DNA from: Thecamonas trahens ATCC 50062
Lineage: Eukaryota > Protista > Apusomonadida
Length of the DNA stretch: 64,000 bases
Assembly (NCBI RefSeq): GCF_000142905.1
Contig: NW_013657679.1
Span: 188,657-252,656 of the forward strand
Direction: 5' to 3'
Shown in pieces: positions 5,962 through 10,174 of the stretch. A program made the translations under genes and the position numbers. Positions within the stretch are counted from its first letter, which is position 1, and each line of letters begins with the position of its first letter. The notes below the pieces were generated by a model. It saw nothing but the letters and a program-made list of their open reading frames with translations, had not been told where the DNA came from and made no database searches.

Positions 5962-8506
5962 CTAGCAGATGATCTGTTTCGTAAAACGGATACTCGAAGA
6001 GAGTGAGCCCCCACCCCATCTGGGGGGGGGGGGGAGAGAGAGAGAGCGAAGACCGGGGCAGTCCAGTCGCTCAGCACAGTGCCTGCTGCGACCGGCGATT
6101 ACTCTGTGACGTGCGCAGACTTTGACGGGGACGGGTTTGTCGACGTGGCCACGGCGTACGACAACATCCACGTTCGACGCAATGACCTTGAAAAACAGCG
6201 ACGCCAGCCCGCCTTGCCGCTGCTTGTCGAGTCGGGCCCACGGGTCGCGACACCGGCTGCCGTCGTGCTCTTCCCCTTCCGAGTCGGCCGCCGCGGCAAC
6301 CGCGAGCGCAGAGCAGGTGGCAATGACCTCGGCTTCTCGCCCACGCAAGAGCGAGACAAGAGCCACGGCTTCGTTGAGGCTAATGTCGGCGACGCAGTAC
6401 CCGGTGATGAGGGAGAAGACGGCAGCAAACGCGATGTCAACCACCTGCTCGACCGAGAGTGTGGCGGCAGCATCGCGCAGAGCCACTGCAGTCGTCCACA
6501 TGGAACGCTGTGCCGCCAACACCAGCTCGTCAGCACACGCCGCAGGTCCTGCCTCGACAGCAGCGACAACCCTGTTCATCTGCCACGCTGACAGGCGCTC
6601 GGGAACGACATGCTCTGGCAGGGGCGGGGAGAGGATTTTGGCGAGCTCGGCGGGAGAAAAGCCTGCGGCCGAGGCGGTGGTAAGAGCGAGGCCGACGTTT
6701 GCGCCGCCAGCGCTGACCGCAGCTTGGAGGAACGAGACGTACACGGGGCGGTAGACGTCGAGGAAGCCAGGGAGGCCGACGAGGTGCGGAGCGACGGCAA
6801 ACGACGTACGGGGCTGGCCGTTGTTCAGCGACCGGACCATCGCCATGCCCATCCGCAGCATCGCGCGCTCGCTGCCCGCGGTCGACGCCACCGCAGCTGC
6901 GACGTCGACGCCACTCGCAAGCACTGCGTCGATGAGTGCCACCGAGTCGGCAGTGATGGCGTCCAGGAGCACGGTGACCACCATGTCGGGGGTGACCCCG
7001 TCGGTGCGGGCCAGCAGGCGCTGCAACGCGGCGGCTTGGCCAAAGGAAGTGGCCGCCTGGACAGCTGCCGGGACATGCTCCGTGGCGACAACAATGTCGC
7101 GGCGGAGTTCGAGGAGGAGGCTGACCAGCCACGCGGTTCTGGGCAAGGTTGCGCGTGAGCGCACGATGAGGCCATCAAAGGCAGCCTGTGCGGCGCGCAG
7201 CGAGACGTGCGGGATGATGCGCATGAGCGTAAGCTGGCCTCCGCCAAAGCCGGTACGCTGGCCTCCGCCAAAGCCGCCAAAGCCGGTACGCTGGCCTCCG
7301 CCAAAGCCGGTACGCTGACCTCTGCCAAAGCCGGTCGCAACGTGCGAGCGATCGTCGTCCATGATGGTTGCGAAGACGGCGTCAGCGACGGCCGGGTCGG
7401 CGAGGTCGACCGAGCGGAGGAGCGAGGACGGGAACGGCGGGTCGGCGGTGACAAACGCGGTCGACCAGGCTGGCGTGAGCGGGGTGAGACGCTCGGCCAC
7501 AGCAGCAAAGACGGCGGCGTCGAGGAGAGAGTCGGGGTCGAGGATAGCGAGGGCCGACCACAACGCAAGCTCGCACGCCTCAGCGTTGTTTGCAAGGTGG
7601 TCGTCAAGGCCGAGGTCAAGGACGGCAAGGACGGTGTCGAGTGGAGCCGACGTGATGATGTCCGGAAGAAAGTCGAGCGAGATGGAGGAAAGTGCCGACG
7701 GGTCGGAGAGGTGGGCGAGCTGGTCGGTGGGCGTGTCAGCAGTGTTGTCGGCAGGGTTGTCGGGCGCGGAAGGATGCCAGTCCTCGGACTCGTCGTCCGC
7801 CTTGCGCCGTCCGCGCCGCACCAGCCCGGCAGGGACGATCCGCAGCTCAATCGTGCGTGTGGCGTGAAGGCGGCGGACGAGATCGCGGATCGGGGCGGCC
7901 AGGTTGGCGTCGTCGGCAAACTCGATGATGGGTGGCTCACCTCCTTCGATGGTGCGCAGCTCGGCGAGCCGCCCTCCAACGCCTTCGGCAAGCTCGATGG
8001 TCACCAGAGAGATGAGCTCGGCCGGGGCGATCGGCGATGTCGGCGAGGATGGCGACGTAGTCGTCCGTGCAGCCGTCCGTGAGCGTACCCGCAGCAAAGT
8101 CGGGCACGTAAAGCTCGGCGAGGGCAGCAAAGGCGTCCGGAGCGTGTTGGCGGATGGCGCCCAAAGCGTCGTGTCCGCACGAGGACGTGAGGAGCGAGAT
8201 CGCGCGAGGGATCGTCCGGCGTGCGGCGACAATCCACCTGTTCTTAAACGCGACGAGGGCAGCGGCGTCGACGACGTCCGGCGGAAGCGTGGGGATGACT
8301 GTGGGGGTGCATGCGGTGAGCGAACGAGCGGCGAGGGCGTAGAGGGGGTCGTTAGACCCGCCGGTGTTTGTGTTGTCGGCGACCAGCCAGCGGAGAGAGC
8401 GGGTGGTGAGCGCGAGGGCGAGGATCGACGAAGGTGGGAGGTAACCGCGGCGGACCATCGTCTGCAGGACCTCCCCCGGAACGTCGGTGAGCGTGAGGGC
8501 GGACAT
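5962..8506 (-). CDS. Lineage-specific protein with F-box-like N-terminus and helical repeats; frameshift near 8025 (error or pseudogene)
   Basis: MSALTLTDVPGEVLQTM..L...ILALALTTRSL is F-box-like; the protein-like frame switches from DIADR to PAELISLV at a GGGG run; 3' end uncertain. Confidence 0.55.
6094..6190 (+). pseudogene. Isolated FG-GAP/VCBS-like Ca-binding repeat remnant
   Basis: Translates GDYSVTCADFDGDGFVDVATAYDNIHVRRND (DxDGDGxxD); no ATG-started host gene. Confidence 0.5.
7233..7335. repeat. 24-bp coding minisatellite (about 4 copies) encoding GFGGGQRT on the minus strand
   Basis: Unit gctggcctccgccaaagccggtac repeated, with one 9-bp internal duplication. Confidence 0.9.
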
Positions 8507-8619: not shown

Positions 8620-9240
8620 GGACGCGAAGCCGACGGTCATGATCCAGCACTCTACATCGGCCTGGAGCCTACCGAGCCGTTTGCATTTCTGCATGTCCTG
8701 TTCGAGGCCCACTTTGTTCAGCAGGGTAACGCTGCTGACATCCACACACTCGCCCGCGGGGTACATTGAGCAGGTTGACGCCATCGAAACCGCCCTCGCC
8801 CCTGCCTCTGCATCTGCATCGACTGCGGCGTCGAGAACGCGTGATTTCCTGTGATTTCCCTGTTTCGTCGGCATTGGCCAACGGCGCCAACCGCCTCCGC
8901 GCCAAGCTCTGCGGCTACCACAACCGGCATGGCGCATTGCTGACTGATGCTGGTTACGGCAAAACTCCTCCGAGGTGACCGCCTGGCCATCCGCCGCCTC
9001 GAAGCGATCCACGACGCTCGTCTCGACCCTTCCCATCTCGGCGGCGTCGTCCACAAGCTCGCGCACACGTACGAGAAACACGCTGGGCGGCTGGCCCGAA
9101 TTGTCGATGACAATGCTCACTTGCCGTCAATCAGCGCAAGCGACGCCGCTGTGGAGGCGACGAAGGCGTGGTACGCCGCTTTCTCGCTCATCCCGTCCAA
9201 GATCGACCTGGCCGCGTTTGATGACATGTCGAGGAGGAAG
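8620..9240 (+). pseudogene. Degraded gene fragments in shifting frames
   Basis: Protein-like stretches (HDPALYIGLEPTEPFAFLHVLFEAHF; GYIEQVDAIETAL; ALANGANRLRAKL; LHTYEK-like/AWYAAFSLIP segment) joined by frameshifts and a 10-bp tandem duplication at 8841-8860. Confidence 0.35.
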
Positions 9241-9287
9241 GGCGGTGGGGTGGAGAGGAAGGGGAAGCTCGTGCGTGCGGTACTTTG

Positions 9288-9983
9288 TCATGGCAGAACC
9301 GTCTTGAACCACTGCCCCGCCTGCCACCCTTCACGCGAGCGGGTGGGTGTCTGGGCGTCGTACAGGGACGGAGAAAACACAAATACAGGCAGGTTCTTCT
9401 CTATGGCAAAAAGCTTCAACATGTCGTCACAAGAGCAGCACGGCGTCTTCGAAATCCACATGGCCAGCACCGTCGGCTCCAACACTGCCTCGGCGAGAAT
9501 GACGAGCAGTTGCATCTCCGCATGCGGACGCTTCGATTTCCACTTTGCCCTGCGCGCCTTGTGCGACTTGCCCTTGAGCTCGGGAACCCCCTTCCAACCA
9601 GTGCAAGTTCTCAGACTTTGGAAGGACGACCTGAACCGCTTTGCCTCGGGGCCGTGGACGACGTTCGGCAAGAACAGGTGGCAAACACCATCCACAACGC
9701 GCAAGCAGTAGTTGGTTTCGCATGTGGGGGAACACGAACACGGTTTCGATCCCGAGAAGAACAGCACTTTGCTGACTTCGATATCGTCCTTCTTCATTGT
9801 GCCCTGGGCCAACTCCCCAATATCATAGTACATGGCAACTTTTTGCCGAAACACATTGCTGGACGTGGGGTCGAGGACGCTCAAGTCAACAGCATACACA
9901 TCTTTCTCCCCCCAGGTGACAGGGAACCCACTGTCGCCATGATCATCGCAATGTTCCCAGCCGAAAACACCGGTAGCCGCCAT
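9288..9983 (-). CDS. Zinc-dependent nucleic-acid/nucleotide deaminase, OTT_1508-like clade (231 aa)
   Basis: HAEMQLL followed about 20 aa later by WISKTPCCSC (HxE ... SK..CxxC); intronless, visibly more A/T-rich than neighbours. Confidence 0.75.
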   Translation of the reverse strand: MAATGVFGWEHCDDHGDSGFPVTWGEKDVYAVDLSVLDPTSSNVFRQKVAMYYDIGELAQGTMKKDDIEVSKVLFFSGSKPCSCSPTCETNYCLRVVDGVCHLFLPNVVHGPEAKRFRSSFQSLRTCTGWKGVPELKGKSHKARRAKWKSKRPHAEMQLLVILAEAVLEPTVLAMWISKTPCCSCDDMLKLFAIEKNLPVFVFSPSLYDAQTPTRSREGWQAGQWFKTVLP

Positions 9984-10174
9984 TCCAACGAGTGACGTGT
10001 GAGCACTGAGGTCTGAGAAGTCTGAGCACTGTGAGCAGGTCGAATGCCCAGGCACTGTTTGAGTCAATTTTGGGCTTGTTCGGACTCCAACAGCTCCAGC
10101 CGGAAACCCGAAGCCGTGCTTGTCCGACTCCGCCACTTTCATCCGCCCACACAGTCTTTGTCAGACACGTCTCA

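What the first reader, a model, noticed from the sequence alone, without database searches (positions are those of the whole stretch)
9288..9983. Intact toxin-type zinc deaminase (OTT_1508-like) in a protist accessory island
Seen: HAEMQLL (about 9504-9524) and WISKTPCCSC (about 9429-9458) supply all zinc ligands and the catalytic Glu. A basic patch (KGKSHKARRAKWKSKR) directly precedes HAE, and a second Cys cluster (PCSCSPTCETNYC) lies upstream. The gene is intronless, more A/T-rich than its neighbours, and intact among decayed genes. Established: HAE...SK..CxxC typifies the OTT_1508-like clade of the deaminase fold, found in bacterial polymorphic toxins and sporadically in eukaryotes. It lacks the TadA/ADAT-type EPC.MC motif. 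Inference: a laterally acquired DNA/RNA mutator or antiviral editor, and a possible base-editing enzyme. This is my best candidate for an undescribed system here.
Basis: partly seen in the sequence, partly recalled or inferred. Interest (0 to 1): 0.8.

Follow-up and report, generated by a model that had tools for sequence, protein, structure and literature searches.

The report
Stand-alone DYW-like deaminase in a protist
This intact protist gene carries a complete zinc-deaminase active-site motif and has one close relative in our searches; its predicted shape most resembles the plant RNA-editing (DYW) enzymes without their RNA-guiding repeats, so it likely converts C to U in nucleic acids, on a target still unknown.

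Summary
9288-9983(-) is an intact 231-aa ORF with HAE154-156 and PCxxC181-185. A spliced, poly(A)-bearing run covers 9203-9960 without change. One relative was found (P0004, 35% identity). The OTT_1508 label is not supported: the GxxK and axxP signatures fail, P0004 lacks the lysine, and TadA-like proteins score higher on that model. The Cys cluster and most of the basic patch are not conserved in P0004. Sequence profiles point to AID/APOBEC. [quoted passage not shown] Best structural matches are OTP86 DYW (Z 7.5) and PPR-DYW (7.0), nearly tied with APOBEC3H (6.5). No PPR array, second zinc site or inhibitory lysine is present. Best reading (about 0.48): a divergent, guide-less DYW-type C-to-U deaminase; AID/APOBEC-like 0.27. 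Activity, substrate and origin are untested. 'Decayed neighbours' is partly assembly error, and no mobile-element signature was found.

The parts
9288..9983 (-). Deaminase ORF, 231 aa (P0001); an in-frame upstream ATG at 10142 would give 284 aa
   Evidence: unchanged in contigs of runs X1-X4
9759..9983 (-). Residues 1-75: low-confidence N-terminal part, acidic start (7 D/E against 1 K/R in the first 35 aa, counted by hand), so unlike a mitochondrial presequence; residues 37-68 resemble a PPR E2 motif by eye (consensus recalled, untested)
   Evidence: pLDDT below 50; no Pfam hit for residues 30-110 or 30-70
9705..9743 (-). Cys cluster, residues 81-93; absent from P0004, so not a family feature
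   Evidence: alignment A1
9672..9710 (-). Predicted strands 1-2 (residues 92-104), DGxxHL[FL] shared with P0004; in the place of the DYW PG-box hairpin
   Evidence: DOT4 sequence; PG box = first two strands
9525..9671 (-). [quoted passage not shown]
9504..9524 (-). HAEMQLL: zinc ligand H154 and predicted catalytic E156
9429..9458 (-). WISKTPCCSC: end of strand 3 and zinc ligands C182, C185
9288..9386 (-). Strand 4, aromatic Y208, 18-residue loop without helix 4, last strand 224-227; GWx4[WY]FxT shared with P0004, and both proteins end here
9203..9960 (.). Stretch covered by one 758-nt contig of run X2, which behaves as cDNA; 0 differences, 0 gaps
   Evidence: GT..AG joint 15463-15632; 24 A behind 19738

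Best explanation
This intact gene carries a complete zinc-deaminase motif (H154, E156, C182, C185) and is likely a strongly diverged, stand-alone DYW-type enzyme that would convert C to U in single-stranded nucleic acid, probably RNA. Shown: the ORF, the motifs, one homolog, cover by a cDNA-like contig, and no PPR array in the ORF. Predicted: a deaminase fold with a PG-box-like hairpin, a gating-type amphipathic helix, no helix 4 and a short tail. Inferred from the family: zinc activates water and E156 shuttles the proton. The DYW inhibitory lysine position holds I177 and the four second-zinc ligands are missing, so it would be less autoinhibited than plant DYW domains. It has no guide of its own, so it would either be recruited by a separate RNA-binding partner, as plant DYW1/DYW2 are, or bind through the basic patch with loose specificity. 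The acidic N-terminus argues against mitochondrial import, so a cytosolic or nuclear target (host RNA, or viral or selfish nucleic acid) is my guess.
For: (1) The AlphaFold2 model from alignment A5 (33 rows, none DYW or APOBEC; one bacterial APOBEC-like domain included) has block pLDDT 61-89 over residues 91-230: strands 93-97 and 100-104, helix 112-127, no helix after strand 4, last strand 224-227. (2) Top structural rows: OTP86 DYW Z 7.5, rmsd 3.5, 108 of 132 residues; PPR-DYW Z 7.0, 3.9, 115. In the search of 48,161 chains the four rows with Z of 5 or more are PPR-DYW 7.0, DddB 5.9 (3.4, 93), DYW1 5.8 (3.9, 100) and a Pseudomonas toxin deaminase 5.2 (4.6, 115); AID scores 4.5 (2.8, 87). (3) The DYW gating domain is a ~55-residue insert with an amphipathic helix at exactly this place, reported only in DYW-type PPR proteins (PMC7611903). 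(4) By eye against the DOT4 DYW sequence printed in PMC6424221: residues 92-132 align without a gap (G99, F104, P112, E113, R125, G132 identical; F117, F121, L124 on the helix's hydrophobic face), and 147-208 align without a gap (H-to-C spacing 28 in both). The terminal aromatic pair falls at 225-226. P0004 has FAPD and ITVRS where the cotton consensus has YvPD and IiVRD. (5) Dinoflagellate proteins filed in the DYW clade carry HAE and SHTPCxSC with short tails (8 rows of Fig. S25 seen), so an APOBEC-like active site occurs inside that clade. (6) P0004 ends at the same place.
Against: No sequence tool detected DYW: no DYW, E or E+ Pfam hit for either protein or for six fragments, and no DYW chain among 40 and 48 PDB profile hits, which are 39 and 48 APOBEC-type chains. 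Identity in the structural alignments is 10-11% to DYW but 17-20% to APOBECs. APOBEC3H (Z 6.5, rmsd 2.8, 88 aligned) is within about 1 Z of the top row. No row reaches Z 8, which the tool says may mean only a common arrangement, and Foldseek found nothing at E of 0.001 or below. HxEK, CxxCH, the second zinc site, the strand-4 Asp and the base-stacking leucine (K179 here) are all missing. The DOT4 comparison is by eye (13 identities in 103 positions) and has no statistic. The model rests on two full-length family members. No activity, localisation or partner was tested.
Confidence: 0.48

Rival explanations
1. It is a divergent AID/APOBEC-like deaminase with a long loop-3 insert and a tail cut after loop 7, acting on ssDNA or RNA cytosine in defence against viruses or retroelements.
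For: The two-sequence profile ranks APOBEC3G first: single domains reach about 20-23 bits, against at most 15.1 for 32 bacterial deaminase domains and 12.2 for 36 T-even dCMP deaminases. The best Pfam hits are APOBEC_N 24.4 bits (P0001) and APOBEC2 26.9 bits (P0004, cut-off 26.8). Residues 197-220 align to human AID without a gap, 7 of 24 identical, including the loop-7 aromatic (by eye). An Asn follows strand 2 in both proteins, and P0004 has VSSSPC as APOBEC2 does. Loop-3 inserts reach 64 aa in SNAD2.
Against: The same Pfam models give 20-31 bits to ordinary dCMP and TadA deaminases, so their rank is weak evidence. The PDB holds many APOBEC chains. The model has no helix 1 of any confidence, no helix 4 and no helices 5-6. 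This reading needs a 42-aa insert and a ~70-aa truncation that both happen to copy the DYW layout. The bacterial APOBEC-like domain L304 matched poorly (probability 1%).
Confidence: 0.27
2. It is an OTT_1508-like toxin deaminase taken up from bacteria.
For: PF14441 hits at E 6e-4 and 1.4e-4. K179 precedes the Cys pair. Fungal members have a helical insert at the same place, and the clade shows C-terminal decay.
Against: GxxK is WISK in P0001 and WVSS in P0004; there is no axxP or conserved His after strand 4. The score is under the cut-off and under that of TadA-like proteins. HAEMQ also occurs in TadA, dCMP and viral deaminases. No bacterial or viral relative was found. I could not obtain a true member for direct comparison (0 of 808 genome searches over the cut-off).
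Confidence: 0.08
3. It is a derived dCMP deaminase of the T4-phage type, acting on free nucleotide.
For: T4 dCMP deaminase is the only phmmer PDB hit for P0001 (E 0.075). T-even enzymes fill the weak phage tblastn list (E 8-9). hhalign gives probability 53%, E 1.4e-4, over residues 139-221, including LYD..EGW. These enzymes also have a long insert before HAE.
Against: A profile of 36 T-even enzymes scores P0001 8.0 and P0004 5.3 bits (best of 500 shuffles 4.2 and 2.8). PF00383 gives 14 and 13 bits, against 85-87 for true members. The NA, NxxP and second-zinc His are absent. Structural Z is 4.1 at rmsd 6.3 over 103 residues. There is no PHROG hit.
Confidence: 0.06
4. It belongs to a separate small clade that fits none of the named families, or it is a relic without activity.
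For: Sequence and structure signals disagree, only two members are known, and no Z reaches 8.
Against: All catalytic residues are kept across 35% identity, which argues against a relic.
Confidence: 0.11

Closest known systems
Plant PPR-DYW editing deaminases (OTP86 DYW 7o4e, consensus PPR-DYW 9kfx) and the short trans-acting DYW1 (7w86) and DYW2
   Same: Predicted strand 1-2 hairpin in the PG-box place, gating-type insert with amphipathic helix, H-to-C spacing of 28, no helix 4, tail of the same length ending in an aromatic pair; best structural matches.
   Different: No PPR array, HAEM instead of HSEK, PCxxC with proline, no inhibitory lysine, no second zinc site, no DYW tripeptide, no obvious organelle presequence, 10-11% identity, no Pfam DYW hit.
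Dinoflagellate expansions of the DYW clade (Krishnan 2018, Fig. S25)
   Same: HAE and SxTPCxSC active site, Phe seven residues after the last Cys, short tail without second zinc site (8 rows seen).
   Different: They have a conserved R after HxE and H before the Cys pair; no sequence hit links them to P0001; they are expanded (1-39 copies), while copy number here is unknown.
AID/APOBEC-like deaminases (AID, APOBEC2, APOBEC3G/H, NAD1, SNADs)
   Same: HAE..SxxPCxxC, Asn after strand 2, hydrophobic-aromatic pair after strand 4, best sequence-profile matches.
   Different: 47-aa loop 3, no predicted helices 4-6, no basic residue at the end of strand 4, no signal peptide seen by eye.
OTT_1508-like deaminases (PF14441)
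   Same: HAExQL and, in P0001 only, SK before the Cys pair; helical insert as in fungal members.
   Different: No GxxK, no axxP, sub-threshold score, no toxin or immunity context.

Membership tests
Zinc deaminase superfamily | HxE and CxxC zinc site with catalytic Glu | tested here: met
   H154, E156, C182, C185 in P0001, kept in P0004
Zinc deaminase superfamily | Alpha/beta deaminase fold | tested here: met
   Model; the five top rows and the 17 top rows are deaminase structures or deaminase fusions, all Z below 8; core rows of the alignment were deaminases, so partly circular
DYW clade | PG box covering strands 1-2 | tested here: inconclusive
   Predicted hairpin in register with DOT4, G99 and F104 identical, but no PG or SW letters and no Pfam E+ hit
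DYW clade | [quoted passage not shown] | tested here: met
   Helix 112-127 at pLDDT about 77-85; 108 of 132 OTP86 residues aligned; Lys seven residues before His in P0001, P0004 and DOT4. The beta-finger is not predicted (helix 140-150 instead, pLDDT about 62)
DYW clade | HxEK motif, inhibitory Lys (K915), Asp at the end of strand 4 | tested here: not met
   HAEM, I177, S204; dinoflagellate members also depart from HxEK
DYW clade (classical) | Second zinc site (two His, CxC) and DYW tripeptide | tested here: not met
   D186, D209, no C-terminal Cys; QWF and SYF at the matching place
DYW clade | C-terminal hairpin: strand 5 antiparallel to strand 4, no helix 4 | tested here: inconclusive
   No helix 4 and a last strand in the model; strand direction could not be read because coordinates are not given
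PPR-DYW editing factors | N-terminal PPR array | tested here: not met
   231-aa ORF, no PPR Pfam hit, no splice joint listed at the gene
PPR-DYW editing factors | Organellar C-to-U RNA editing | not testable with these tools
   No host genome held; no raw RNA reads
AID/APOBEC-like | Aromatic residue in loop 7 and Asn at the start of loop 3 | tested here: met
   Y208 and N107; aligned to APOBEC3G RIY/RLY
AID/APOBEC-like | SxS before PCxxC; basic residue after strand 4 | tested here: inconclusive
   SSS in P0004, SKT in P0001; basic position is S or Q, but SNADs vary there too
AID/APOBEC-like | Helix 4 before strand 5, and two helices after strand 5 | tested here: not met
   The protein ends 23 residues after Y208, so helices 5-6 cannot be present; no helix 4 in the model. 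SNAD1/2 also lack helices 5-6
OTT_1508-like | GxxK before CxxC | tested here: not met
   WISK and WVSS
OTT_1508-like | Polar residue (usually His) and axxP in the loop after strand 4 | tested here: not met
   Neither protein has them
OTT_1508-like | Structural or profile-profile match to true members | tested here: inconclusive
   No member obtained; none named in the fold lists
dCMP deaminase | NxxP after strand 2, NA after HxE, TxxxT in strand 3, second zinc His | tested here: not met
TadA/ADAT | EPCxMC and two helices after strand 5 | tested here: not met
   TPCCSC; short tail

The most novel reading that the evidence does not exclude
A DYW RNA-editing domain has shed its PPR guide, second zinc site, inhibitory lysine and organelle targeting, taken on an APOBEC-like active site, and now works as a free, constitutively open C-to-U editor or mutator in the cytosol or nucleus of a protist. 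That would be a route from organellar editing enzyme to APOBEC-style defence, and a compact new base-editor scaffold.
Probability: 0.2. Interest if true: 0.8.

Novelty: new variant of a known kind. Interest (0 to 1): 0.52.

Why it matters
The gating insert was reported only in DYW-type PPR proteins (PMC7611903, passage seen), and AID/APOBEC-like enzymes were listed from animals, dictyostelids, two haptophytes, one green alga and bacteria (PMC5889660, Fig. S2). Either assignment adds a small protist branch that the literature searches did not turn up, and that mixes features of the two main divisions of the fold. It is a 231-aa single-domain protein, easy to test for RNA, ssDNA or dsDNA deamination. 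The gene seems to have been missed by public annotation. The limits are plain: two members, no system around it, no demonstrated activity, and scattered divergent deaminases are common in protists.

Tried and rejected
Homolog searches: word-index searches with P0001, A1 and A2 returned nothing or only P0004. Pattern scans of viral, metagenome and genome collections gave no relative (241 loci screened). Phage and plasmid tblastn gave only weak hits. A2 in 401 proteobacterial genomes gave 9 weak matches, one of them a TadA-like protein. PADLOC and PHROGs gave nothing for either protein; NCBIfam gave only a cytidine deaminase hit at E 0.22 for P0004. No host genome is held, so paralogs, PPR partners and mitochondrial editing could not be checked. 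No RNA holder is listed among 19 runs; X2 is labelled 'DNA?', and I read it as cDNA from its joint and poly(A) end. No X2 cover was seen between about 9960 and 10155, which is no proof about the start codon. Single-sequence folding failed (pLDDT 31.6). Foldseek against PDB and viral models gave no match at E of 0.001 or below. Three scans and one genome search for a DYW sequence to align failed. A background count of the DYW-like landmarks in other deaminases was written but not run, because the script machine was lost. In one search, 18 of 21 XOO_2897 loci and 7 of 24 PF00383 loci were dropped because the extraction pattern missed them. Pfam rank as a clade test was rejected after controls. 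The antisense ORF 8947-9711 was rejected as the source of the X2 contig, whose ends fit the minus-strand ORF better; contigs do not show strand. The host name used in paper searches (Thecamonas) is my guess from composition and was not established. The Iyer 2011 supplement could not be read and may list further members.

Full report
Observation. The minus strand at 9288-9983 holds a 231-aa ORF with HAEMQLL (9504-9524) and WISKTPCCSC (9429-9458), a basic patch and a Cys cluster, as described. Contigs of four runs from two samples show no substitution or gap in it. Run X2, labelled 'DNA?' by the tool, has a GT..AG joint at 15463-15632 and 24 adenines behind 19738, so it behaves as cDNA. One of its contigs covers 9203-9960 unchanged. 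That indicates transcription of the stretch in one run; contigs give neither strand nor level. The exact protein is absent from the 15-billion-protein collection, and no near-identical sequence came back, while two neighbours are present. The gene therefore seems unannotated.

Context. The host is a GC-rich, intron-poor eukaryote; no tool named it. Housekeeping genes flank the region: choline kinase, an OTU protease and a Suf/CstF-77-like gene on one side, a USP on the other. Between 5962 and 14467 the six ORFs tested besides the deaminase have no useful Pfam or PHROG hit. The five of them scored for composition are host-like; the deaminase has GC 0.56 and the lowest codon-adaptation score of 27 in-frame ORFs (one out-of-frame row was dropped but stayed in the reference counts). 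Its GC3 of 0.69 is inside the host range, so there is no clear sign of recent transfer. No terminal repeats were found. The frameshifts at 13204 and 19345 are each absent from contigs of three runs, so part of the 'decay' is assembly error.

Relatives. HMMER over 1.84 billion representatives returned one protein, P0004 (182 aa, 35%, E 6.6e-7), a single sequence on a 1083-nt ENA contig. It shares DGxxHL[FL]xxN, KWK, HAEMQL, WxSxxPCxxCD, the aromatic after strand 4 and GWx4[WY]FxT, and it ends at the same place. It lacks the Cys cluster, the lysine of SK and most of the basic patch. All other searches failed (see Tried and rejected).

OTT_1508 test. Iyer 2011 (PMC3239186; abstract and passages including Table 1 seen, supplement unavailable) defines the clade by GxxK before CxxC and a His plus axxP after strand 4. 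Neither protein meets these. The Pfam score of 20.2 bits is under the cut-off of 27, and TadA-like proteins with HAEMQVL score 23-25 bits on the same model. HAEMQ is also found in TadA, dCMP and viral deaminases. In a base-editor screen the clades named as active on ssDNA did not include OTT_1508 (bioRxiv 2023.05.21.541555, passages).

Sequence signal. Eight of 11 Pfam hits are AID/APOBEC-type models. The two-sequence profile returns APOBEC-type chains in 39 of 40 and 48 of 48 PDB rows. APOBEC3G domains score about 20-23 bits, against at most 15.1 for 32 bacterial domains and 12.2 for 36 T-even dCMP deaminases. Residues 197-220 match human AID without a gap, 7 of 24 identical (by eye; PMC5889660, main text parts 1-4 of 7 and supplement parts 1, 3, 6, 7 and 100 of 100 seen). 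Against this, the same Pfam models give 20-31 bits to housekeeping enzymes. A T4-type dCMP deaminase also aligns (probability 53%), but a family profile scores only 8.0 and 5.3 bits.

Structure signal. A single-sequence fold failed. I then folded P0001 with P0004, one bacterial APOBEC-like domain and 30 rows cut to the HxE-CxxC core; no DYW or APOBEC sequence was included. Mean pLDDT is 62: below 50 for residues 1-75, 61-89 by block for 91-230. The model has strands 93-97 and 100-104, helices 112-127 and 140-150, helix 155-165, strand 172-176, helix 183-195, strand 200-204, a loop with no helix, and strand 224-227. Best matches are OTP86 DYW (Z 7.5, rmsd 3.5, 108 aligned), PPR-DYW (7.0, 3.9, 115), APOBEC3H (6.5, 2.8, 88) and APOBEC3G (6.0, 3.2, 98). 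In the wide search they are PPR-DYW, DddB, DYW1 and a Pseudomonas toxin deaminase, ahead of AID at 4.5. These values are middling and partly tied, and Foldseek found nothing significant. From memory, AlphaFold2's training structures predate the DYW structures (released 2021 and later in these lists), so the DYW-like layout is unlikely to be memorised.

DYW comparison. In OTP86 the PG box forms strands 1-2, and a gating insert of about 55 residues with an amphipathic helix joins strand 2 to helix 2. K915 inhibits the catalytic Glu and a C-terminal motif binds a second zinc. The authors found the gating sequence only in PPR proteins (PMC7611903, passages). Set by eye against the DOT4 DYW sequence (PMC6424221, one passage), P0001 runs at a fixed offset from 92 to 132 and, after a two-residue deletion, from 147 to 208, and ends with an aromatic pair where DYW stands. 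Identity is only 13 of 103, and the background test could not be run. The cotton and soybean consensus sequences (PMC5365158, PMC6888332, one passage each) fit P0004's FAPD and ITVRS. HxEK, K915, the second zinc ligands and the PPR array are missing, so it is not a classical member. Dinoflagellate proteins filed under DYW also have HAE and SxTPCxSC. No DYW sequence could be fetched for a scored comparison, and Pfam DYW and E models gave no hit.

Mechanism. Shown: gene, motifs, conservation, transcript-like cover. Predicted: the fold and the gating-type helix. Inferred: zinc-hydroxide deamination with E156; a cytosine target, because both leading families act on C and the aromatic after strand 4 is said to limit the pocket to pyrimidines in AID/APOBEC-like enzymes; weak autoinhibition; targeting by a partner or by the basic patch. 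Plant DYW proteins can be recruited in trans (bioRxiv 2026.09.04.749523 and PMC13324415, passages), and protist PPR-DYW proteins are tied to mitochondrial editing (PMC11946409, passages). The acidic N-terminus argues against import here. Hypermutation of integrated viral DNA in another protist has been linked tentatively to deaminases (bioRxiv 2026.01.13.699255, passages), which keeps a defence role plausible without supporting it.

Verdict. A real, apparently unannotated orphan deaminase of a two-member family. It works like a C-to-U nucleic-acid deaminase; the DYW-type reading is the likeliest (0.48), AID/APOBEC-like next (0.27), OTT_1508 unlikely (0.08). It fails full membership of every named family. 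Four paper searches found no description (listings only). Earlier scan notes report other divergent DYW and APOBEC-like genes in protists (unchecked), which lowers the surprise. New variant of a known kind; interest 0.52.

Noticed in passing
window 13204 and 19345: Apparent frameshifts in an orphan gene and in the USP gene; contigs of three runs each carry one more base, so both look like assembly errors.
   Followed up: yes
window 15464-15631 and 19738: GT..AG intron upstream of the long USP ORF, and a poly(A) end behind it, in run X2.
   Followed up: partly
window 5962-8506 (-): Two or three ORFs that read like one long Pfam-less gene with a frame change near 8000, not bridged by a listed contig; it includes Gly-rich 24-nt repeats at about 7229-7333.
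   Followed up: partly
window 8947-9711 (+): A 254-aa ORF overlapping the 3' half of the deaminase antisense; its first ~100 codons may be a real convergent gene (X2 contig 8698-9106).
   Followed up: partly
window 10175-11449 (+): Intact 424-aa orphan, divergently oriented from the deaminase with 191 bp between the starts; single-member cluster, no useful family hit.
   Followed up: partly
L304:1309-1821 (G961): A 1051-aa open frame from a genome in the phylum of G005 with an AID/APOBEC-like domain near its end (only APOBEC-type Pfam hits); possibly an undescribed bacterial toxin.
   Followed up: partly
L015, L018-L020: Short viral-contig deaminases with HAEMQ and an unusual spacer before PCxxC.
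   Followed up: no
window 14526-14625: A 100-base assembly gap inside the orphan region.
   Followed up: no
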